A stretch of DNA of 21,072 nt, from positions 1 through 21,072 of the IMG/VR virus record IMGVR_UViG_2648501437_000019; one strand, 5' to 3'. A program made the position numbers and the translations under genes. Source of the DNA: a virus (lineage: Duplodnaviria > Heunggongvirae > Uroviricota > Caudoviricetes). Under the pieces are notes generated by a model. That model was not told the DNA's origin. It saw only the letters and a list, made by a program, of their open reading frames with translations, and made no database searches. This document shows, piece by piece, positions 2,286-16,612 of the stretch (the first letter of the stretch is position 1; the number at the start of each line of letters is the position of its first letter).

Positions 2286-2294
2286 TGCGATAAT
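2286..2294 (+). promoter_or_regulatory. candidate extended -10 promoter element (TGcGATAAT) upstream of the 2333 gene
   Basis: TGCGATAAT lies about 38 nt upstream of the ATG at 2333; no good -35. Sequence pattern only. Confidence 0.3.
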
Positions 2295-2332
2295 AACACC
2301 ATCAAGAAAACATGTTGTTTAAGGATTGCTTT

Positions 2333-2698: not shown

Positions 2699-2815
2699 TA
2701 TAGCCGCAGGGAAGAACCTGCATATCGCTCATGCACCTGATCAATATGCTTTGTAGCCGTTTTCTTACTGGTATTATTTACGCCATTGAGAAAACAAGTT
2801 GTTTACGGAGTTGTA

Positions 2816-3686: not shown

Positions 3687-3766
3687 AAGCCCGATAACAA
3701 TTTGTTTTCTGCCTTATCTGATTTGTGAAAATGATTTCACTGAAGCAACTTAATAAGGAAACCATC

Positions 3767-4141
3767 ATGGGACTTGATATCTATATCGAGACACAGCCTA
3801 AAAACGATCTGAATAACGAGGCATCCAGAAAGCAGGTTGCTTACTTCCGTAAGTTCAATGCGCTCGTTGGGTGGATGGAGCGCAACGTAGGTGAAGTCGA
3901 AAATTGTGAGCTTTTAGAATTAACGATGAATGACATTTGTTTTCTGAAGGCTCATTTGATGCACATAAACGAAAGTAATTGCGAAGAGTACTTGCCTACC
4001 CGGGAAGGTTTTTTCTTCGGCAGTCAGGAGTACGATGAAGGTTACTGGCATGATGTGGGGCAGTTGAAAGAGCTTGTGGAAGATCTGATTAAGAACCACG
4101 ACTTTCACAATAACAGACTGACCTTCTGCGCCTGGTGGTAA
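3767..4141 (+). CDS. hypothetical protein (124 aa), acidic
   Basis: ATG at 3767 with AAGGA SD at 3755-3759 (the listed ORF starts at GTG 3725). Confidence 0.6.
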   Translation: MGLDIYIETQPKNDLNNEASRKQVAYFRKFNALVGWMERNVGEVENCELLELTMNDICFLKAHLMHINESNCEEYLPTREGFFFGSQEYDEGYWHDVGQLKELVEDLIKNHDFHNNRLTFCAWW

Positions 4142-4287: not shown

Positions 4288-4491
4288 TTATTAAGGCCAT
4301 CAGCATTGGTGGCCTTAAATGACCATCTTGTTTCCCGCAGGCTAAAAACACCAACCTCTTACCTCCAGGCAACCGACAAACCCACCTGTTCCCGTCCGGC
4401 TACCGCAACTTTCCACTTTGACGCCTTATTCGTACAACGATAATTAACACCAACAAGAAAACAATTTGTTATTTACGATAAGGAATTAATC

Positions 4492-7029: not shown

Positions 7030-7554
7030 TTAAAATGGAAGGATTCGTTCAACCCAATCGAAGAAAACAAGTATTTTTCTGCCGTCTTCTAACTTAAGAG
7101 TGACCTGGCAAGCATCAACGCCTCTTGACACCCCTTCAATTTCACGACCGTCTGCCATGTAGACCCTTATAGATTGGTCGTTTTGATAAGCCTTGCGACA
7201 TATCGCAAAAAAGTCACGGCGTGATGGCTGATTGTCAACATAGTCTGGATGTATTGTTAGCCTACCTTTGAACTCGCGAGCAATGCCATCGATTACACCT
7301 GATTCAATTGTGCTAATGCGCTCAAGTGGGAGTCTTATACGATTTTCTTTATCATATGGAAGCGGGCATAAATCTAGCTTATTGCGGGAAGGCATTGTCC
7401 CCTGAACGTACATGCAAAACACCTGACCGTCTTCAAGCGTGACTCTTACAGGAATGTTGTTCTTCCGCCAGAACATAAGTATGTTTTCAGCATGTTCGTA
7501 GTCTCGCGGCCAGACTTCAGCCGGTATGCCGTAGGTGATGTCCGATGTTCTCAT
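7030..7554 (-). CDS. hypothetical cytoplasmic protein (174 aa)
   Basis: The start ATG overlaps the upstream stop (ATGA at 7551-7554), so it is translationally coupled. Confidence 0.6.
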   Translation of the reverse strand: MRTSDITYGIPAEVWPRDYEHAENILMFWRKNNIPVRVTLEDGQVFCMYVQGTMPSRNKLDLCPLPYDKENRIRLPLERISTIESGVIDGIAREFKGRLTIHPDYVDNQPSRRDFFAICRKAYQNDQSIRVYMADGREIEGVSRGVDACQVTLKLEDGRKILVFFDWVERILPF

Positions 7555-9712: not shown

Positions 9713-11272
9713 CTAATCTCGTTTCAGAACTCCAAAATCGAATGCGCCATCAATAGGCAATACACCTTCCGCAAAGCCAGGTGTGGTGTCGATGATGTGT
9801 TTTCGCTCATAAGAGTGAGACAACAGGTATTTGTTGCTAATGTCAATGAAATCAGTGATAAAACACACGTTTGCCTGATTCTTCTTGGCTCGTAAGCCAC
9901 GACCGACACGTTGTCTCATTTCAACTTCTGCTTTCCCACCACCAGCAAGAATGACCGCACCAACGCTTGGCACATCAACACCGACATCCAGAATAGTCGA
10001 GCCTATTAAAACATCTATTTCGCCAGACGCTAAACTGTTCAGCTTTGCTTGTCTTGTCGCCTGGTTCGATTCCCCATAGATAAAGTCAACTCTAAGGCCT
10101 GACTCCTTCATCATCTCCATCAGGATTTGCCCGTGGCGTTTAAGACGAACTAGAGTCATACAATTGAGAGAATGTTGCTTATAGAGCAATGCCTCGCGCA
10201 CTATGGCCTCGTTACGTCCCAAATTATACACGATCCCCAACTGATAAGCCTTTTGGTAGGCGGTGCTCATACCAACTCTAAAATTGAGGTGTTTGTTGGC
10301 AAGTTCGGCCTTGATTCTGGCCTCGTCTGGCTTGTAGGCAACTTTATGATAAAGGAAGTACGGCTTTGCCAGAATGCCTCGATCAATCAGGTACTTTTCT
10401 GTGACTTTAATTTCAATTCGCCCGGCCACCGCCATCAGACGCATGTTGGCTTCCGTCGAATCCTTCATGAACGGCGTGGCCGTAAGCGCCAGACGATAGT
10501 CTGCGTTCACACATAATCTGGCAATGTCATAGAAATTAGAACCTGAAGACTCATGCGCCTCTTCCAGAATAAGCAGAGACACACTTGAAAGGAAGCGTTT
10601 CACCAAGTCCCGACGTTTGAGGTGGTAGCTCTTCTTATCTGGAGTTGCATCGCGTGGTGGTTCTTCAAGGAAACTTGCCAGAGTTTGAACTGTAGCGACG
10701 TTGATATGTCGTGATACCTGGAACTCACCCGAGCCAATGACTCCAACCTTTTGGTCTTTTAACCACGGTTCGCCATTTTTGGCGCGGTAGTCGATGGATC
10801 TCTGGAAGTTTTCGGCCATTTGAAACATCAGAACAGAGCGGGTTGTTAAAAATAATGTCATTCGACCGATACGTGCAGCTGCTTTACAGGCAACGTTAGA
10901 TTTCCCGCCACCAGTAGCGATTTGCGCAATCATCATTCCCTCTCGAACTAGTGTTTCCACAGTCTGATCCTGATACGCATAATCAGGATTGTATGGGAAT
11001 GGGTTAACCGCCGGATTTGGTTTACCAAGCGCCGGGGCTTTGTCTTTGCGGATATGAACACATCTGATGCCCGCCTTGTTCAAGTTCGCCGCTACAGGCT
11101 TGGCAAAGCCAGCAGGGAACGAGTTTTTACTCCAGTTGAACATCGTGCTTGTGCCCTTCCAGTCGCCAGTCTCGACTTCGTAGCTCAACATTTGCTGCAC
11201 CAGTTGCTTTACCTTGTCATCTGCGCCAGAAATAAGCGCATTTACTGCGTTAGATACAATCCGAACAGTCAT
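9713..11272 (-). CDS. superfamily-2 DEAD/DEAH-box-type helicase (519 aa)
   Basis: Motif I ATGGGKS, motif II LILEEAH, motif III LTATP, motif VI QRVGRGLR; strong SD AAGGAAAGAGG upstream of the ATG at 11272. Confidence 0.85.
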   Translation of the reverse strand: MTVRIVSNAVNALISGADDKVKQLVQQMLSYEVETGDWKGTSTMFNWSKNSFPAGFAKPVAANLNKAGIRCVHIRKDKAPALGKPNPAVNPFPYNPDYAYQDQTVETLVREGMMIAQIATGGGKSNVACKAAARIGRMTLFLTTRSVLMFQMAENFQRSIDYRAKNGEPWLKDQKVGVIGSGEFQVSRHINVATVQTLASFLEEPPRDATPDKKSYHLKRRDLVKRFLSSVSLLILEEAHESSGSNFYDIARLCVNADYRLALTATPFMKDSTEANMRLMAVAGRIEIKVTEKYLIDRGILAKPYFLYHKVAYKPDEARIKAELANKHLNFRVGMSTAYQKAYQLGIVYNLGRNEAIVREALLYKQHSLNCMTLVRLKRHGQILMEMMKESGLRVDFIYGESNQATRQAKLNSLASGEIDVLIGSTILDVGVDVPSVGAVILAGGGKAEVEMRQRVGRGLRAKKNQANVCFITDFIDISNKYLLSHSYERKHIIDTTPGFAEGVLPIDGAFDFGVLKRD

Positions 11273-11354
11273 AAACCTCTTTCCTTAGTGCCTTTTGTAT
11301 GTTATTTGGCTATTATAATAAGTAAGTGATTACTTAGTGGATTGTAGCAATAAA
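11273..11354. promoter_or_regulatory. divergent promoter region between the helicase and the late plus-strand operon
   Basis: 82-bp spacer with TATAAT at 11314-11319 and the palindrome AAGTAA-GTGA-TTACTT at 11321-11336. Confidence 0.4.
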
Positions 11355-12035
11355 ATGGATGTAAAAATCACGATTTTGCAGGTTGATGTTGCCAACCTTC
11401 GCCCGAATACCTGGAACACCAATTCGGTTGGTGCGCAGAATTTTGAAAAACTGAAAGGTTCTATCGAAAAATTGGGCTTTTTTAAGCCAATTTTGGCTCG
11501 TGAACTTGAAGATGGATTTTTTGAAATCCTCGGCGGCGAACATCGCTGGCGTGCCGCTATTGAGCAAGGAATTTCAACGGTTCCGGTGCTTTCTGTGGGC
11601 AAAATTAGCGATGTCGTAGCTAAACAGATGTCACTGGTGGACAACGAGCGATACGGTGAAGACGACCAAATCGCATTGCAACGCTTCATTGAAGAAATTC
11701 AGTCAGAACTTGACTATCAACTGTCTGAAATCGCCCCGTATGACGACGAAATCTCGATGGTTTTAGCAAAAGAGGCGGCAATCGACCTTGAAGCACTGGA
11801 GGCGTTGTCTCGTGGTAGTGATGAGCCTGTCGATACCGACAAACGAGAGAAAACCGAACGTGTGGGTGCGGAACATCAGACCATGCGCTTCAAAGTAACT
11901 TTCGATGCGTCAGATCGTGTTGCAGAAACCATAAAAAACATCATCAAAGAGCAGGCTATTAACACCGGTAATGAAATGGAGAACGCTGGTGAGGCTCTGG
12001 TGTGGCTGGTCGACTACTACAAGGAGCGTATGTAA
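11355..12035 (+). CDS. ParB/Srx-like nuclease-domain protein 1
   Basis: ParB/Srx signature ILGGEHRWRAAIEQGISTVPV; acidic C-terminal half. Start taken as ATG 11355 (the listed ORF starts at GTG 11337). Confidence 0.7.
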   Translation: MDVKITILQVDVANLRPNTWNTNSVGAQNFEKLKGSIEKLGFFKPILARELEDGFFEILGGEHRWRAAIEQGISTVPVLSVGKISDVVAKQMSLVDNERYGEDDQIALQRFIEEIQSELDYQLSEIAPYDDEISMVLAKEAAIDLEALEALSRGSDEPVDTDKREKTERVGAEHQTMRFKVTFDASDRVAETIKNIIKEQAINTGNEMENAGEALVWLVDYYKERM

Positions 12036-12703
12036 TGACCAAAAAGTTTGAAATCGTATATCGCGACCCGGCAGATCTTATTCCCTATGAGATGAATGCC
12101 AAAAAGCATGATGAACAGCAGATCCGAGATCTGGCCGCAGCCATTAAAAAGCGCGGATTTGACCAGCCAATTACGGTCGATAAGAACGACGTAATTATTA
12201 CTGGCCACGGCCGCCGTGAGGCTGCAATTTTTGCTGGACTTGAGCGCGTACCGGTTATTGTTCGCGATGATCTCAGTGATGACGAGGTTCGTGCGAAGCG
12301 CCTTGAAGATAACCGACTTGCCAGCATTGATTACGATGCAATTAAGCTACAGAAAGAGCTTGAGTCGCTTGTTCTGGACGATATCGAGGTTTTCGGCTTT
12401 GAAGAGCGTGAGTTGAATGTTCTCGTTGGCAGTATGACAGAAGAAATGGACACCGACTCGCTAGTTATCGATCTTGGCGAAGAAACTAAACGACAGAAGG
12501 ATGAACACACCGAGATCAGTCGTGAAGTTGCAGCGGAAGAAGTACGTGTTGTCGACGTATTGGGCTTTAAAACGCTCCCTGCTGGCTCTGCCATTGTTGT
12601 TGGTGATTTGCTTGCCCACATGGAAGAAATGACGGGAGAAAGCGGGGTAGACGCATTTGTGGCATATGCGGAGAAGATCTCTTCTGGGGAGATGGCTGCA
12701 TGA
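12035..12703 (+). CDS. ParB/Srx-like nuclease-domain protein 2
   Basis: Signature ITGHGRREAAIFAGLERVPV; ATG overlaps the upstream stop (TAATG) with AAGGAG SD at 12021-12026. Confidence 0.7.
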   Translation: MTKKFEIVYRDPADLIPYEMNAKKHDEQQIRDLAAAIKKRGFDQPITVDKNDVIITGHGRREAAIFAGLERVPVIVRDDLSDDEVRAKRLEDNRLASIDYDAIKLQKELESLVLDDIEVFGFEERELNVLVGSMTEEMDTDSLVIDLGEETKRQKDEHTEISREVAAEEVRVVDVLGFKTLPAGSAIVVGDLLAHMEEMTGESGVDAFVAYAEKISSGEMAA

Positions 12704-13365
12704 GCAAATACATCATCAACGTATCGTTTCAGACACGCGTAAATAAAACCACGCGCACGTTGGAAATCGCTGAGTCGTTCGGGCTTGGCCTGGACGAAAA
12801 AGAGTGGACGCTTTACGACAATCTGGAGCTGGAAGTGAAGCAGGGCGATGTGGTGTATATCACCGGCCAATCCGGTTCCGGCAAATCCGTTGTGCTGCGC
12901 GAGTTGCAACGACAGATGAAGGATGAAGGGCTGTCTGTAGCCTCCATCGATGATTTTACCTTCGATAATGAGGTTAACGTCATCGATCAGTTGGGCAAAA
13001 CGACCAGCGATGCGCTTGGGTTGTTATCTATGGCTGGTCTGAACGATGCATATCTGTTTGTTCGCAAGCCTTCTGAAATGTCAGACGGTCAGAAATATCG
13101 TCTCAAGATTGCCAAACTGATTGAGTCAGGCGCTAAAGTGTGGGCTGCTGACGAGTTCGGTGCTGTTCTAGACCGTGTAACCGCTCAGGTTGTGGCATCT
13201 AACCTCCAGCGTGCCGCTCGAAAGGTTGGTGCGACGGTAATGGTGGCGACGACTCACGAAGACCTGAAGAACGCGCTGCGCCCGGATATGCAGATCACCA
13301 AGCACTACAAAGAACGCGTGAAGGTGGAATATCACAATGGTAGTCATGATGAGGTCCATTCATGA
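12700..13365 (+). CDS. ABC-type ATPase (nucleotide-binding domain only, 221 aa)
   Basis: Walker A GQSGSGKS, signature-like SDGQKYRL, Walker B VWAADEFGAVLD, H-loop TTHE; ATGA overlap with the upstream gene. Confidence 0.7.
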   Translation: MSKYIINVSFQTRVNKTTRTLEIAESFGLGLDEKEWTLYDNLELEVKQGDVVYITGQSGSGKSVVLRELQRQMKDEGLSVASIDDFTFDNEVNVIDQLGKTTSDALGLLSMAGLNDAYLFVRKPSEMSDGQKYRLKIAKLIESGAKVWAADEFGAVLDRVTAQVVASNLQRAARKVGATVMVATTHEDLKNALRPDMQITKHYKERVKVEYHNGSHDEVHS

Positions 13366-14252
13366 CGGACATCATCATCAAACGCTACCGCCCTGAAGAG
13401 TTTCCGCGTCATCTGGACTTTCTGGAGCGAATGACTGTCACAAAGGGAACTGTAGAGGACTGGCACGCTCTTAAGTCGCTTCACTACAAAACAGACGGCA
13501 AACCTTTCGCGCCAACATACTATCGCTGCGAACTGGATGACCGTCTGGTGGGCGTCGTGGTTATGGCTTACCCGAAACTACTGTTGGCACCTCGCCACCG
13601 CATGTTTCCTAAGTTGAAACCAACCACTAATACCACCGTGGCTAACCAGTACTGGGGTCGGTACGTGAATAACAACTTTGCGGTGATCAGTCGCTCAGTT
13701 GTGGATACTCAGTATCGTGGCGTAGGCGTCTCTTATCGAATGATTAACCTGGTTAGCAGGATGCATGACCGGCCAATCATTGAGATCCAGTCCTCGATGA
13801 GCAAATACAATCCCTTCGCCATGAAAGCAGGGTTTAAGTTCATCCGCCCTGAGCGACCGAAGAGCTATGAAAGTGCACTGCGTGTGTTCCAGCGCCATTT
13901 CCGCTCCGACCCGGGTGATAACGAGGCGATCGTCAAAGAGTTGTTCGCTATGAGCGAGTCTCGTCGTCGCCGTGCGCTGCGCGATTTGGTGGCGGACTAC
14001 CATAAGAACAGTTCCCTGGCAAAAGCTGGGCGGAATCGTGGCACGACGATTCAGGACATTGCCGACAGTCTGGTGGACGAGGCCAGCATTGTGAAGCTGC
14101 TCAAGGACATTCACAACCTGAGCTTTACGTCTCCGTTGTATGGTGTGTACCGAAACCCTGACTTTGGCCGTCGACTGCCTGACACGCTGCCACTGCTGGC
14201 ATTCGACAAACAACCTTTGGATAAACCGTTAGAAATTGCTTTACCGGCATAA
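13362..14252 (+). CDS. GNAT-fold (acyl-CoA N-acyltransferase-like) domain protein (296 aa)
   Basis: GNAT motif A-like VISRSVVDTQYRGVGVSYRMINLV then NPFAMKAGFKF; ATGA overlap with the ABC ATPase gene. Confidence 0.5.
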   Translation: MTDIIIKRYRPEEFPRHLDFLERMTVTKGTVEDWHALKSLHYKTDGKPFAPTYYRCELDDRLVGVVVMAYPKLLLAPRHRMFPKLKPTTNTTVANQYWGRYVNNNFAVISRSVVDTQYRGVGVSYRMINLVSRMHDRPIIEIQSSMSKYNPFAMKAGFKFIRPERPKSYESALRVFQRHFRSDPGDNEAIVKELFAMSESRRRRALRDLVADYHKNSSLAKAGRNRGTTIQDIADSLVDEASIVKLLKDIHNLSFTSPLYGVYRNPDFGRRLPDTLPLLAFDKQPLDKPLEIALPA

Positions 14253-14261
14253 GGATTTGCC

Positions 14262-14528
14262 ATGACGTTAACCGATAAACAAAAGGACATCATCAAAACG
14301 CTCAATCTCGGTTATGAGCGAGGTCATCTACTTGACCTGGACGAATTGCTTGAAGTTTTGCCGTACAAGACAACCAAGCAAAGTATCCAGTTCTCAATTC
14401 GCGCTCTGATAAAAAAGGGGCTGGTGGAGAAAGGGCATACGCGCCAACGCAGTGACAATCGCTATCACCGCCGAACTCTTGGGTTAACCACTTTAGGTCG
14501 AGCCAAAGCGAAGTTACTGGTGATGTAA
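14262..14528 (+). CDS. small winged-helix-like DNA-binding protein (88 aa)
   Basis: AAGGA SD 6 nt upstream of the ATG; helix-turn-helix-like segment QSIQFSIRALIKKGLVEKG followed by a basic tail. Confidence 0.5.
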   Translation: MTLTDKQKDIIKTLNLGYERGHLLDLDELLEVLPYKTTKQSIQFSIRALIKKGLVEKGHTRQRSDNRYHRRTLGLTTLGRAKAKLLVM

Positions 14529-14561
14529 TCGGTCTGGGAGCTTATTTAAAGACCTGCATCT

Positions 14562-14599
14562 GTATATATAAATAATAAGTAACTTATTAAATATATACG
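14562..14599. promoter_or_regulatory. AT-rich imperfect palindrome of about 38 bp upstream of terS
   Basis: GTATATATAAATAATAAGT-A-ACTTATTAAATATATAC. Followed by direct repeats AAACAAGTTG (14647-14657, 14671-14681) and a hairpin AGAGCGC/GCGCTCT (14685-14704) with a T-run. Confidence 0.45.
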
Positions 14600-14723
14600 G
14601 AAGCAGGCTTCGTAAGACATGCCAGACCTAATTAAACACCCCAGAAAACAAGTTGGTTAGCAGATGCAGTAAACAAGTTGTTTTAGAGCGCATGGACGCG
14701 CTCTGTGTGTTTTAGAGGGATCT

Positions 14724-15356
14724 ATGACGGTCGAAAAAGACGAGGTAAAAACTCGCCTGACACCAGCGGAGTGGGCCGAAGCTGAAGCCAAATGGACGTC
14801 AGGCGAATATACACTCTCAAAGCTTGAGGAAGAGTACGGCATTCGTCGTGAAACACTCTCCAGACATTTCAAAAAGCGAGGATTAGAGAAAGGCGCGGAC
14901 TCTGTTGGGAAGATGGTTCGTGAGTCTCTTAAATCTGACGCAGAGCTTCGCGCTAAAGCCCGTGCGGAAAAGATAGAAGAACGTCGTACACGTTATGACG
15001 GCTGGGCGTATGCGTTGGGGCAGATGGTGATGGTCGAAGTCACTACGGCCAAACGTGAGGGTAAGCCTTTAGGGGCGATTGAGGATTCTCTCAAGAGCTT
15101 ACAGAGAGCCAGTAATACCCTTGCAAAATGCTTTGAAGTTTCGTCCAAAGCATTGGGCATGGATCATGCGGAAAATGACGAGGAAGAAATTCCGAACCTG
15201 GTATTTGGTGAGCTTACGCCTTCCCAGGTGGCGAAATTACGTCAGGAAGACGACGAGCCTGAAATCATCGATGACGAATTGCTTGAGACGTTGGAAGAAG
15301 AAGCTCTAAGCGAATTTGATGCGACAGATGATGGAAGTGAAGGGGAGGACGAATAA
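14724..15356 (+). CDS. terS: terminase small subunit (210 aa)
   Basis: Sits directly upstream of and overlapping terL (TAATG); N-terminal HTH-like region YTLSKLEEEYGIRRETLSRHFKKRG; acidic C-terminus. Confidence 0.7.
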   Translation: MTVEKDEVKTRLTPAEWAEAEAKWTSGEYTLSKLEEEYGIRRETLSRHFKKRGLEKGADSVGKMVRESLKSDAELRAKARAEKIEERRTRYDGWAYALGQMVMVEVTTAKREGKPLGAIEDSLKSLQRASNTLAKCFEVSSKALGMDHAENDEEEIPNLVFGELTPSQVAKLRQEDDEPEIIDDELLETLEEEALSEFDATDDGSEGEDE

Positions 15357-16612
15357 TGGCAATCCCGTCCTCGCTCAGTCTTGTGCAACTGCATTCTGGA
15401 CAGATGAAAGTCTTCCAGTCTCCGCATCGATTTAAAGTTGTTTGTGCTGGTCGACGCTGGGGAAAATCCCGGTTGTCGATCTCCACTATTATTCGTGCGG
15501 CGGCAAAGGAAAAAAAGCAAAGGGTCTGGTATGTCGCTCCTACTTACCAGATGGCTCGCCAGATTTTGTGGGACGATCTACAGGAAGTTCTGCCTCGTAA
15601 GTGGGTTAGGAAAAAGAACGACACCACGATGACAATCGTGTTGAAGAACGGTTCGGAGATCGCCCTCAAAGGTGCTGATAAGCCTGACACTCTGCGCGGC
15701 GTAGCGTTGCATTTTGTAGTGCTTGATGAATTTCAGGATATGAAGGCTGACACCTGGTACAAGGTGTTACGACCTACTCTTTCATCGACACGCGGCGGTG
15801 CACTGATCATTGGTACGCCAAAAGGCTTCTCGGAATTTCACAAACTGTGGACTATAGGCCAGAACGTAGAGCTGCAAAGAAAGGGACAGTGGAAGAGCTG
15901 GCAGTTTGTAACTGCCGATTCTCCGTTTGTACCTACGGCGGAAATTGAAGCTGCTAAGAACGATATGGACCCCAAATCGTTCGCTCAGGAGTACCTGGCC
16001 AGCTTTGAGAACATGTCCGGGCGCGTTTACTACCCGTTCGATCGTAACGTGCATGTAAAACCGCTTCAGTTCAACCCTCGGTTGCCTATATGGGTAGGGC
16101 AGGACTTCAACATTGACCCGATGTCTTCAGTAATTTTGCAACCTCAGCCAAATGGTGAGCTATGGGCAATTGATGAATTGGTGCTCTTTTCCTCTAACAC
16201 GGCAGAAGTTTGTGATGAGCTTGAGAGACGCTTCTGGCGCTGGAAATCACAGGTAACGGTATTTCCAGATCCGGCAGGTGCTTATCGCCAACATGCTCGT
16301 GGGGAGTCTGACGTAGACATATTCAAAGAGAAGGGATTCTTACGTGTCGATTATTCGAAAAAGCACCCGCCAATTGCGGATCGTGTTAATGCTGTTAACC
16401 GAATGCTGATGTCCGCATCTGGAGATATCCGGCTGTATATCGATCCGAAGTGCAAGCATTTGATTGATTCACTGGAAAAAGTCATCTACAAGCCTGGAAC
16501 ACGAGATATGGATAAGACGGGTGGCATTGAGCATAGTGCAGACGCATTGGGCTATCCAGTACATCGTAGGTATCCAGTCAAAAACCGTGTTATTCTTGGT
16601 GGTTCTAGATAG
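15356..16612 (+). CDS. terL: terminase large subunit (418 aa)
   Basis: Walker A VCAGRRWGKS, Walker B HFVVLDEF, C-terminal nuclease-like region; SD AGGGGAGGA upstream. Confidence 0.9.
   Translation: MAIPSSLSLVQLHSGQMKVFQSPHRFKVVCAGRRWGKSRLSISTIIRAAAKEKKQRVWYVAPTYQMARQILWDDLQEVLPRKWVRKKNDTTMTIVLKNGSEIALKGADKPDTLRGVALHFVVLDEFQDMKADTWYKVLRPTLSSTRGGALIIGTPKGFSEFHKLWTIGQNVELQRKGQWKSWQFVTADSPFVPTAEIEAAKNDMDPKSFAQEYLASFENMSGRVYYPFDRNVHVKPLQFNPRLPIWVGQDFNIDPMSSVILQPQPNGELWAIDELVLFSSNTAEVCDELERRFWRWKSQVTVFPDPAGAYRQHARGESDVDIFKEKGFLRVDYSKKHPPIADRVNAVNRMLMSASGDIRLYIDPKCKHLIDSLEKVIYKPGTRDMDKTGGIEHSADALGYPVHRRYPVKNRVILGGSR

What the first reader, a model, noticed from the sequence alone, without database searches (positions are those of the whole stretch)
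14562..14713. Large AT-rich palindrome and direct repeats immediately upstream of terS
A 38-bp imperfect palindrome (14562-14599) is followed by two copies of AAACAAGTTG (14647-14657 and 14671-14681) and a GC hairpin with a T-run (14685-14713), all within 160 bp of the terS start. Packaging initiation sites in many phages lie in or next to terS and consist of repeated small-terminase binding sites; alternatively this is the late promoter and operator.
Basis: partly seen in the sequence, partly recalled or inferred. Interest (0 to 1): 0.45.

Follow-up and report, generated by a model that had tools for sequence, protein, structure and literature searches.

The report
Control region upstream of phage-plasmid terS
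The palindrome, repeats and hairpin upstream of the small-terminase gene are real, but they look like the control region of the packaging and structural operon of an SSU5-type phage-plasmid rather than a proven packaging site.

Summary
The window is an SSU5-type phage-plasmid, 99.5-100% identical to E. coli phage Cyrano/pLF82 and CMS-2020a. All three features exist, with corrections.

**Palindrome.** The 38-bp palindrome is the middle of a 55-bp inverted repeat (14553-14607), inside a ~100-bp imperfect dyad (about 14530-14628). It is not unique. SSU5, Cyrano and a distant Moellerella plasmid each carry three copies at the same three module boundaries. The arm sequence is shared within a genome and differs between lineages. 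This points to a binding site for an element-encoded protein, not a unique cos or pac signal.

**Repeats.** The "direct repeats" are two copies of a 13-bp palindrome, AAACAAnTTGTTT. Cyrano has 18 copies against 0.7 expected, and SSU5 has 20. They mostly sit 13-14 nt after extended -10 boxes and 10-40 nt before gene starts. That is a genome-wide operator, not TerS-specific sites.

**Hairpin.** The GC hairpin is a conserved leader hairpin with compensatory stem changes. Its T-run is lost in divergent lineages.

**Packaging.** This reading is unresolved. The SSU5 GenBank record is opened inside copy A, at window 14590. However, unrelated assemblies also break in this palindrome. The closest TerL relative with mapped ends (Nickievirus, 56% identity) has long direct terminal repeats, not cohesive ends.

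The parts
14262..14528 (+). 88-aa conserved small protein, probably a winged-helix DNA-binding protein, last gene of the ParB/ParB/ABC/ABC block upstream of terS
   Evidence: ORF. PHROG 900, E 2e-45. Weak, sub-threshold LexA_DNA_bind match over the whole domain, E 0.07. Conserved down to Moellerella at 60% identity and to Nickievirus at 31%.
14530..14628 (.). Extended imperfect dyad with outer GGTCTGGG / CCAGACC blocks flanking the core inverted repeat
   Evidence: The same outer blocks flank the paralogous copies in other contexts.
14553..14607 (.). Core 55-bp inverted-repeat unit, copy A: arms CCTGCATCTGTATATAT / ATATATACGGAAGCAGG around an AT-rich 21-nt middle. The SSU5 GenBank record starts at 14590 and the Cyrano record at 14591.
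   Evidence: Paralogous copies B and C are in Cyrano, SSU5 and Moellerella.
14627..14632 (+). Weak -10-like hexamer CCTAAT, 13 nt upstream of the first operator (inferred, not a consensus promoter)
   Evidence: Same spacing and same 'AACACC..CAGA' linker as the extended -10 promoters at 2286, 2769 and 4439. The consensus sigma-70 scan found no promoter here.
14646..14658 (.). Operator copy O1, AAACAAGTTGGTT (13-bp palindrome, 1 mismatch)
   Evidence: Absent in Klebsiella relatives, consistent with a 25-bp tandem duplication.
14671..14683 (.). Operator copy O2, AAACAAGTTGTTT (perfect)
14684..14713 (+). Leader hairpin (stem 14684-14705, loop ATGGAC) followed by TGTGTGTTTT. Terminator-like in this lineage.
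   Evidence: A hairpin with different stem sequences folds in 7 of 8 lineage variants, and the loop A(A/T)GGA is conserved. The T-run is absent in two divergent lineages.
14724..15356 (+). terS, the putative small terminase subunit (210 aa), with an N-terminal helix-turn-helix
   Evidence: PHROG 867, E 2e-100. Its stop overlaps the terL start, and Cyrano annotates it as the small terminase subunit. Alignment A2.
15356..16612 (+). terL, the large terminase subunit (418 aa), of the T4/P74-26 type
   Evidence: Terminase_6N E 3e-9. PDB 4zni (P74-26 TerL) E 5e-18. 56% identical to Nickievirus TerL.
2308..2320 (.). Another copy of the 13-bp operator, behind the extended -10 TGCGATAAT (2286-2294)
2792..2804 (.). 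Another perfect copy of the operator, behind the extended -10 TGGTATTAT (2769-2777)
3695..3707 (.). Operator copy in an intergenic region. A TG-extended -10-like TGTGAAAAT lies downstream, so it may overlap the -35 region of that candidate promoter.
4459..4471 (.). Operator copy behind GATAAT (4439-4444)

Best explanation
The interval 14530-14723 is the cis-regulatory head of the packaging and structural (late) operon of an SSU5-type phage-plasmid. It has three separable elements.

**1. Composite inverted repeat (core 14553-14607).**
- Shown: it is copy A of a three-copy family that sits at the same three module boundaries in every SSU5-type genome examined. These are before terS, before the helicase/primase replication module, and just after the adenine methyltransferase.
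- Shown: each copy starts about 22-27 nt after the upstream stop codon. The copies in the E. coli/Salmonella-type genomes are followed by a similar 'ACACC..CAGAA' segment.
- Shown: the 16-17-nt arms are shared by the copies within a genome and change together between lineages.
- Inferred: the arms are bound by an element-encoded sequence-specific protein that switches or insulates transcription of the three big co-directional modules. The protein is not identified.

**2. Weak promoter core and two operator copies.**
- Shown: a weak promoter-like core is followed by two copies of a 13-bp palindromic operator, which belongs to a regulon of about 20 sites.
- Inferred: a dimeric repressor sits just downstream of the transcription start.

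**3. Leader hairpin before the terS ribosome-binding site.**
- Shown: the pairing is maintained by compensatory changes.
- Inferred: it acts as an attenuator, a weak terminator or an mRNA-stabilising structure.
For: **Identity of the element.**

**Three copies at conserved positions.**
- Cyrano: 108342/1, 31159 and 78084.
- SSU5: the record junction, 33458 and 78304.
- Moellerella pW18-2-b has the lineage-specific arm CCTAGCTCCCATA at the same three positions, plus three solo arms (with the annotation).
- Two or three copies per contig in many IMG/VR contigs.

**Concerted change of the arms.** E. coli/Salmonella/Klebsiella carry CCTGCTTCYGTATAT, Xenorhabdus CCGTKCTCCCAWAATATAT and Moellerella CCTAGCTCCCATAG.

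**Variable spacer.** The AT-rich spacer ranges from 21 to about 115 nt, and solo arms exist. This argues for protein binding rather than an obligatory hairpin.

**Operator.**
- 15 matches against 1.5 expected in the window.
- 18 against 0.69 expected in Cyrano.
- 9 perfect copies against 2 for the next-best 6-1-6 palindrome.
- 20 copies in SSU5.
- A conserved TGnGATAAT box lies 13-14 nt upstream, and gene starts lie 10-40 nt downstream.

**Hairpin.** Stems GAGCGC, GAGCAC, GGCGTC/GATGCC and CGGCGC fold as a hairpin at the same place in the minimum-free-energy structure of 7 of 8 lineage variants.
Against: - No binding protein is identified. The recognition helices of the two obvious neighbours, TerS and the 88-aa protein, are almost invariant while the arms differ between lineages.
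- The consensus scan finds no sigma-70 promoter here. The -10-like hexamer is poor in E. coli and absent in the SSU5/pMT1 lineage, so the true late promoter is not located.
- One unit heads the replication module, so this is not simply a late-gene element.
- The SSU5 record start inside copy A is not explained by a purely regulatory role, except as an assembly break.
- No transcript or binding data exist.
Confidence: 0.55

Rival explanations
1. Copy A of the palindrome is where terminase recognises or cuts the concatemer. It would be a fixed genome end, either a cohesive-end site or one boundary of a long direct terminal repeat. The flanking sequence would distinguish it from copies B and C.
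For: - The virion-derived SSU5 record is opened at dyad centre +9, 133 nt before a gene its authors did not call terminase. Its end and start rejoin exactly to the plasmid sequence.
- Nicks symmetric about the dyad would leave a 17-nt 3' overhang in an AT-rich core flanked by conserved arms.
- In SSU5, copy B diverges exactly at the cut point: TTATTA|TTATTTATACGG against TTATTA|AATATATACGG.
- A TerL 56% identical, in the same gene block, belongs to a Nickievirus. Nican01 of that genus was scored 'DTR (long)' by PhageTerm, so fixed ends are plausible in this family (PMC11256456 Table 2).
- An inverted repeat with an AT-rich spacer lies upstream of terS in every SSU5-type lineage examined.
Against: - There are three paralogous copies per genome. 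In many E. coli-type genomes copy B is identical to A over the whole right half, including the putative cut point.
- The Cyrano start is one base off and was probably copied from SSU5. The Cyrano paper reports nothing on its ends.
- Contigs from genome and metagenome assemblies break inside this palindrome. Four do so in copy B or an unassigned copy (L030, L093, L169, L152). One (L205) ends in copy A, 2 nt from the SSU5 end.
- No contig starts exactly at the SSU5 start.
- TerL is of the T4/P74-26 type, not the lambda or HK97 cos type.
- No paper held in the library gives SSU5 termini.
Confidence: 0.2
2. The palindromes act as RNA on the + strand. Long hairpins at the ends of the upstream operons would serve as intrinsic terminators or insulators, or as RNase III processing sites, separating three co-directional transcription units.
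For: - Each copy begins 22-27 nt after a + strand stop codon.
- Copies B and C are followed by T-runs: GCAGGTCTTTT and GCAGGCTGTTTT.
- The RNA fold is very stable, z -7.0.
- Left-arm variants are mostly C-to-T changes that keep G-U pairs on the + strand. Cyrano copy B has a compensatory CTG/CAG in place of CCG/CGG.
Against: - Copy A has no usable U-tract: CUUCGUAAG.
- Paralogous copies share the same arm sequence, which a structure-only element does not require.
- In Moellerella and Xenorhabdus the spacer is 50-115 nt, some sites are solo arms, and separate terminator-like hairpins precede at least two of the solo arms.
Confidence: 0.12
3. The AT-rich inverted repeats are DNA-level sites for replication or recombination. 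They could be unwinding elements or origins for the T4-like replication machinery, or hot spots at which modules are exchanged.
For: - Copy B lies directly upstream of the helicase/primase module.
- The element encodes homologues of UvsW, UvsY, gp32, RecA, SbcCD and RuvC.
- Different left flanks are joined to the same right flank at copy B.
- A 62-kb E. albertii deletion derivative that lacks all structural genes keeps a copy at a rearrangement junction.
Against: - No initiator is linked to the sites.
- GC skew is monotonic and gives no origin signal.
- Three origins at module heads is an unparsimonious arrangement.
- The plasmid replicon (RepA) lies elsewhere.
Confidence: 0.08

Closest known systems
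Activator-dependent late promoters with an upstream dyad (P2/P4 Ogr/Delta sites centred near -55; Mu C-protein sites; P1 Lpa late promoters) - from general knowledge
   Same: - A conserved dyad lies upstream of a weak promoter at the head of the morphogenetic operon.
- Several copies occur per genome.
- The dyad centre (14581) is about 59 nt upstream of the inferred start.
   Different: - The arms are 16-17 nt, separated by 21-115 nt of AT-rich DNA.
- One copy heads the replication module.
- No activator has been identified.
- Outer GGTCTGGG/CCCAGACC blocks are also present.
Dispersed operators of global plasmid or phage regulators (RK2 KorB O_B, TTTAGCSGCTAAA, a 13-bp 6-1-6 palindrome with 12 copies; P1 C1 operators) - from general knowledge
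   Same: AAACAAnTTGTTT is a 13-bp 6-1-6 palindrome with about 20 copies per genome, placed at promoters of many operons.
   Different: - The sequence is unrelated and the binding protein is unknown.
- It sits 13-14 nt after the -10 box, so it would be in the early transcribed region.
- It is confined to the E. coli/Salmonella/Klebsiella lineages.
Phage packaging signals next to terS (lambda cos, SPP1 pac, T5- or T7-type terminal-repeat ends)
   Same: - It lies immediately upstream of terS.
- It has an AT-rich dyad.
- One virion-derived record is opened in it.
   Different: - It is not unique in the genome.
- The nearby repeats are not specific to terS.
- TerL is of the T4/P74-26 type and is 56% identical to a Nickievirus TerL, a genus in which Nican01 was scored 'DTR (long)'.
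- The ends have not been mapped experimentally.
Protelomerase target telRL of linear phage-plasmids (N15, PY54, phiKO2) - from general knowledge
   Same: It is a palindrome of about 56 bp with an alternating TA-rich core, in a phage-plasmid.
   Different: - The records are circular.
- There are three copies.
- No protelomerase is annotated.
- The spacer length varies.
- The sequence differs from the N15 telRL sequence as recalled; no alignment was run.
Intrinsic terminator or leader attenuator ahead of late genes (for example lambda tR' with the 6S RNA)
   Same: A GC-rich 7-8-bp stem with a following T-run lies between the promoter-operator region and the first late gene.
   Different: - Five non-U bases separate the stem from the U-run.
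- The U-run is lost in two lineages while the hairpin and its AGGA loop persist.

Membership tests
cos site (cohesive-end site) | Virion DNA ends map to the site | tested here: inconclusive
   The only evidence is the position of GenBank record starts: SSU5 at window 14590 and Cyrano at 14591. No reads are available. Other assemblies break in the same palindrome.
cos site (cohesive-end site) | A single cleavage site per genome length | tested here: not met
   Three paralogous units per genome in Cyrano, SSU5 and Moellerella. In many E. coli-type genomes copy B matches the right half of A exactly.
cos site (cohesive-end site) | Terminase large subunit of a cos-type clade (lambda GpA, P2 or HK97 types) | tested here: inconclusive
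   - Pfam gives Terminase_6N and Terminase_6C.
- The nearest solved structures are P74-26 TerL and T4 gp17.
- The tblastn relatives are T5-, T1- and Jersey-like phages.
- TerL is 56% identical to Nickievirus TerL. Nican01 of that genus was scored 'DTR (long)' by PhageTerm (PMC11256456).
- One tree-based paper places a Nickievirus TerL with 3' cos phages (PMC8537276).
pac site with repeated TerS-binding motifs | Repeated motifs specific to the terS region | tested here: not met
   The repeat is a genome-wide 13-bp palindrome with 18-20 copies. Klebsiella relatives have one copy at terS, and Moellerella, Xenorhabdus and Morganella relatives have none.
pac site with repeated TerS-binding motifs | TerS binds the region | not testable with these tools
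   This needs a gel-shift or footprinting experiment.
Promoter with repressor operator | A palindromic site shared by several promoters at a fixed distance from the -10 box | tested here: met
   The operator starts 13-14 nt after the -10 box at window 2286/2308, 2769/2792, 4439/4459 and 14627/14646, and at most Cyrano sites.
Promoter with repressor operator | A recognisable sigma-70 -35/-10 at the terS copy | tested here: not met
   The consensus scan found no promoter in 13800-15400. CCTAAT lacks the -11 A, and the SSU5/pMT1 lineage has no -10-like hexamer there.
Intrinsic (Rho-independent) terminator | A GC-rich stem immediately followed by a U-tract, conserved in relatives | tested here: inconclusive
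   The stem is conserved with compensatory changes. The U-tract is set off by 5 nt and is missing in lineages L007 and L112.
Protelomerase target (telRL) | A single palindrome plus a protelomerase gene, with a linear prophage that has hairpin ends | tested here: not met
   There are three copies, the records are circular, and no protelomerase is annotated in Cyrano, SSU5 or Moellerella.

The most novel reading that the evidence does not exclude
The ~100-bp composite palindrome belongs to an undescribed class of 'module-boundary' sites of SSU5-type phage-plasmids and their relatives. There would be three concertedly evolving copies per genome, recognised by a protein from the conserved ParB/ParB/ABC/ABC/winged-helix block that always sits next to terS. 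Copy A would double as the fixed genome end, a direct-terminal-repeat boundary, cut by terminase. That would physically couple module-level transcription control to packaging.
Probability: 0.12. Interest if true: 0.7.

Novelty: new member of a known kind. Interest (0 to 1): 0.42.

Why it matters
SSU5-type phage-plasmids include pMT1 of Yersinia pestis, pHCM2 of Salmonella Typhi and many Klebsiella and E. coli plasmids that carry resistance genes. I found nothing in the papers I could reach about how they keep about 100 kb of lytic genes silent, or where their DNA is cut for packaging.

This analysis gives two concrete, testable sets of cis-elements:
- a regulon of about 20 operator sites;
- a three-copy, concertedly evolving inverted repeat at the heads of the packaging, replication and a third module.

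It also gives one precise coordinate, window 14590, that a single read-mapping experiment can confirm or reject as a genome end.

Tried and rejected
- **Literature.** I found no statement on SSU5-type termini, cos sites, palindromes or operators. The SSU5 announcement and the Gilcrease & Casjens paper are not held.
- **Rfam.** Nothing in 14300-14900.
- **Promoter scan.** No consensus sigma-70 promoter.
- **Structure-database sequence searches.** The TerS and 88-aa protein searches against solved structures gave nothing usable.
- **LexA box.** The arms contain CTGTATAT, but the CTGT-N8-ACAG spacing is not met and SSU5 has CCGT. Rejected by inspection.
- **XerCD/dif-like site and IHF consensus.** The match is poor by inspection and the spacer is too long and variable. 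Rejected.
- **T4 late-promoter TATAAATA.** It is present in some arms but on inconsistent strands. Treated as chance in AT-rich DNA.
- **GC skew as an origin signal.** The skew is monotonic and uninformative.
- **Contigs that start at the SSU5 start.** None in IMG/VR or in metagenomes.
- **'Unrelated' plasmids carrying the palindrome.** pLAO59 shares the copy-B flank and the adjacent helicase/primase genes with SSU5-type genomes. The E. albertii p2014EL-1348-1 plasmid is a deletion derivative of an SSU5-type element. They are not independent systems.
- **Arm-like pair in Pseudomonas phage nickie.** A possible pair (CCTTGCTTTCC ... GGAAGCAAG) lies upstream of its terS. It is too short to separate from chance.
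- **nickie record ends.** They carry no comparable dyad.

Full report
**What the window is.** The region 14200-15400 is 99.8% identical to Escherichia phage CMS-2020a, 97.8% to PhiR41_1 and 99.5% to phage Cyrano (pLF82). It is 77-79% identical to Klebsiella phage-plasmids and to Salmonella phage SSU5. In PLSDB, 834 plasmids match, including Yersinia pestis pMT1 and Salmonella pHCM2-type plasmids. The finding lies in the 195-bp gap between an 88-aa conserved gene (14262-14528) and a 210-aa gene (14724-15356). The stop of that gene overlaps a Terminase_6N large terminase (15356-16612), which is followed by the portal gene. Cyrano annotates the 210-aa gene as the small terminase subunit.

**Checking the observation.** All three features are present.
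- The palindrome is larger than reported. It has inner arms 14565-14580/14582-14597 and outer arms 14553-14569/14591-14607, giving a 55-bp core. A looser outer pair, GGTCTGG/CCAGACC, extends it to about 14530-14628.
- As single-stranded DNA it folds at -21 kcal/mol against -6.9 +/- 2.2 for shuffles (z -6.3).
- The "direct repeat" is a 17-nt unit 25 bp apart. Its core is a 13-bp 6-1-6 palindrome, AAACAAnTTGTTT, at 14646-14658 and 14671-14683.
- The GC hairpin is at 14684-14705, followed by TGTGTTTTAG. A direct repeat TGTTTTAGAG flanks it.

**The repeats are a genome-wide operator.**
- The 13-mer with up to 2 mismatches occurs 15 times in the window against 1.5 expected.
- In the complete Cyrano genome it occurs 18 times on the coding strand with up to 1 mismatch, against 0.69 expected and a maximum of 3 in 200 simulations.
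- It is the most over-represented 6-1-6 palindrome there, with 9 perfect copies against 2 for the next best. SSU5 has 20 copies.
- Nearly all copies lie 10-40 nt upstream of + strand gene starts, including the genes for ParA, helicase, CobT and NrdB and many small genes. They are preceded by a conserved extended -10 block with the consensus TGnGATAAT-tAACACCAaCAAGA.
- In the window this architecture is seen at 2286/2308, 2769/2792 and 4439/4459. The terS copy has the same 13-nt linker behind a weak CCTAAT (14627-14632).
- Klebsiella relatives have one copy at terS, so the second copy here fits a 25-bp tandem duplication.
- Moellerella, Xenorhabdus and Morganella relatives have none, and the motif is not enriched in the Moellerella plasmid.
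- These are therefore operator sites of a lineage-specific regulon placed just downstream of promoters. They are not TerS-specific packaging repeats.

**The palindrome is one of three paralogous units.**
- Scanning IMG/VR for the invariant right half gave 94 loci and then more than 119. They fall into several flank contexts, and many contigs of about 100 kb carry two or three copies.
- Cyrano has exactly three full units. Copy A is before terS, at the record junction. Copy B is at 31159-31211, before CYRAN_31, the helicase and the primase. Copy C is at 78084-78138, just after the adenine methyltransferase.
- SSU5 has the same three: the junction, 33458 and 78304.
- The conserved part is the pair of 16-17-nt arms, CCTGCTTCYGTATATA. 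The AT-rich middle varies between copies.
- Each unit starts 22-27 nt after the upstream stop codon. In the E. coli/Salmonella-type genomes it is followed by a related 'ACACC..CAGAA' segment.
- In the distant Moellerella plasmid (TerS 57% identical) the arm is different: CCTAGCTCCCATAgTATTTA. It occurs at the same three positions A, B and C, plus three solo arms in the same orientation, with spacers of 53-115 nt (annotation).
- Xenorhabdus and Morganella show yet another co-varying arm pair upstream of terS.
- The same arm is shared among copies within a genome, differs between lineages, and keeps its positions. This is best explained by an element-encoded sequence-specific binding protein. 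Solo arms and long spacers argue against an obligatory hairpin.
- I could not identify the protein. The recognition helices of TerS and of the 88-aa protein are nearly invariant across lineages.

**The small hairpin.**
- Across eight lineage variants the stem sequence changes (GAGCGC/GCGCTC, GAGCAC/GTGCTC, GGCGTC/GATGCC, CGGCGC/GCGCCG). The same stem-loop is the minimum-free-energy fold in seven of them. For the window's own sequence the predicted fold extends through the flanking TGTTTTAGAG repeat.
- The loop keeps A(A/T)GGA.
- The following T-run is present in the main lineages but absent in two divergent ones. In this window it is separated from the stem by five bases.
- It is a conserved leader structure. 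It is terminator-like here, but probably not only a terminator.

**Is copy A also a packaging site?** Points in favour:
- The SSU5 record, made from virions, begins at window 14590, which is dyad centre +9. Its two ends rejoin exactly to the plasmid sequence.
- The authors did not annotate the adjacent gene as terminase, so the start was probably set by the assembly rather than chosen.
- In SSU5, copy B diverges exactly at that point.
- The same gene block occurs in lytic Pseudomonas Nickieviruses: a minus-strand helicase, two ParB-like genes, an ABC ATPase, hypothetical genes (one annotated in Nican01 as an SSU5-like ABC ATPase), a small winged-helix-like gene, then terS, terL and portal. There TerL is 56% identical and TerS 32%.
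- One member of that genus, Nican01, was scored "DTR (long)" by PhageTerm (PMC11256456, Table 2). Fixed ends are therefore plausible for this terminase family.

Points against:
- The element has three copies. In many E. coli-type genomes copy B equals copy A across the putative cut point.
- The Cyrano start is one base off and was probably copied from SSU5. Its paper says nothing about its ends.
- Genome and metagenome assemblies of these elements also break inside this palindrome, in loci L030, L093, L152 and L169. Locus L205 ends 2 nt from the SSU5 end.
- No contig starts exactly at the SSU5 start.
- TerL is of the T4/P74-26 type rather than a classical cos type. One tree-based paper does place a Nickievirus TerL with 3' cos phages (PMC8537276).
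- The Nican01 record itself starts at the terL ATG by convention, so the position of its repeat is unknown.

I put the packaging reading of copy A at about 0.2.

**Other checks.**
- Rfam finds nothing.
- The E. albertii plasmid that carries the palindrome is an SSU5-type deletion derivative lacking all structural genes. The IncY plasmid pLAO59 shares the copy-B replication module with SSU5-type genomes.
- Different left flanks join the same right flank at copy B, so the units mark module boundaries where exchange occurs.
- GC skew is uniformly positive around the genome and gives no origin signal.

**Verdict.** The palindrome is a member of a conserved three-copy family of inverted repeats, most likely a protein-binding control or boundary element. 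Its use as a genome end is possible but unproven, and one read-mapping experiment would settle it. Compared with known systems, this is a new member of known kinds: dispersed operators and dyad-controlled module promoters in temperate phages and plasmids. I found no description of it for this medically relevant plasmid group in the papers I could reach.

Noticed in passing
window 7030-7554 (- strand): This gene is a full-length homologue of FljA, the repressor of phase-1 flagellin (PF03614, E 5e-81). The Cyrano copy also gives a weak Hfq-like match in its C-terminal part. FljA is known to act on an mRNA leader, and the 13-bp motif lies in the 5' leaders of about 20 genes, so this protein is a candidate regulator of that regulon.
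   Followed up: partly
window 9713-14528: The block upstream of terS runs: helicase on the minus strand, two ParB_N proteins, two ABC-type ATPases, then the 88-aa winged-helix-like protein. It is conserved in order from E. coli to Moellerella, and also in lytic Pseudomonas Nickieviruses (L154 1624-7187). It behaves as part of the packaging neighbourhood rather than as plasmid partition genes.
   Followed up: partly
window 2286-2320, 2769-2804, 3695-3707, 4439-4471: Four further promoter-operator units of the AAACAAnTTGTTT regulon lie upstream of small genes of unknown function. At 2308-2320 the operator contains an ATG that the ORF list takes as the start of ORF 2312-2662. The real start is probably the ATG at about 2332, after an AAGGA.
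   Followed up: partly
L006 about 4033-4090; L119/L120 (E. albertii p2014EL-1348-1): This 62-kb plasmid is an SSU5-type element that has lost every structural and packaging gene and carries an inverted segment. One copy of the palindrome sits at the rearrangement junction, which suggests the units are sites of deletion or recombination.
   Followed up: partly
window 14679-14688 and 14708-14717: An exact 10-nt direct repeat, TGTTTTAGAG, flanks the leader hairpin. The second copy overlaps the terS Shine-Dalgarno sequence. In the window's own sequence this allows an alternative longer pairing.
   Followed up: no
Cyrano whole genome (L105-L107): GC skew is positive in almost every 1-kb bin, so the cumulative skew rises monotonically around the 108-kb circle. 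This matches the near-total co-orientation of the genes. No origin or terminus inflection is visible.
   Followed up: no
Moellerella pW18-2-b, reverse-complement coordinates 56234, 82111 and 107593 (L116-L118): Three solo copies of the lineage-specific arm, with no recognisable partner, lie in intergenic gaps. One is inside the tail operon. All three have the same orientation as the genes.
   Followed up: no
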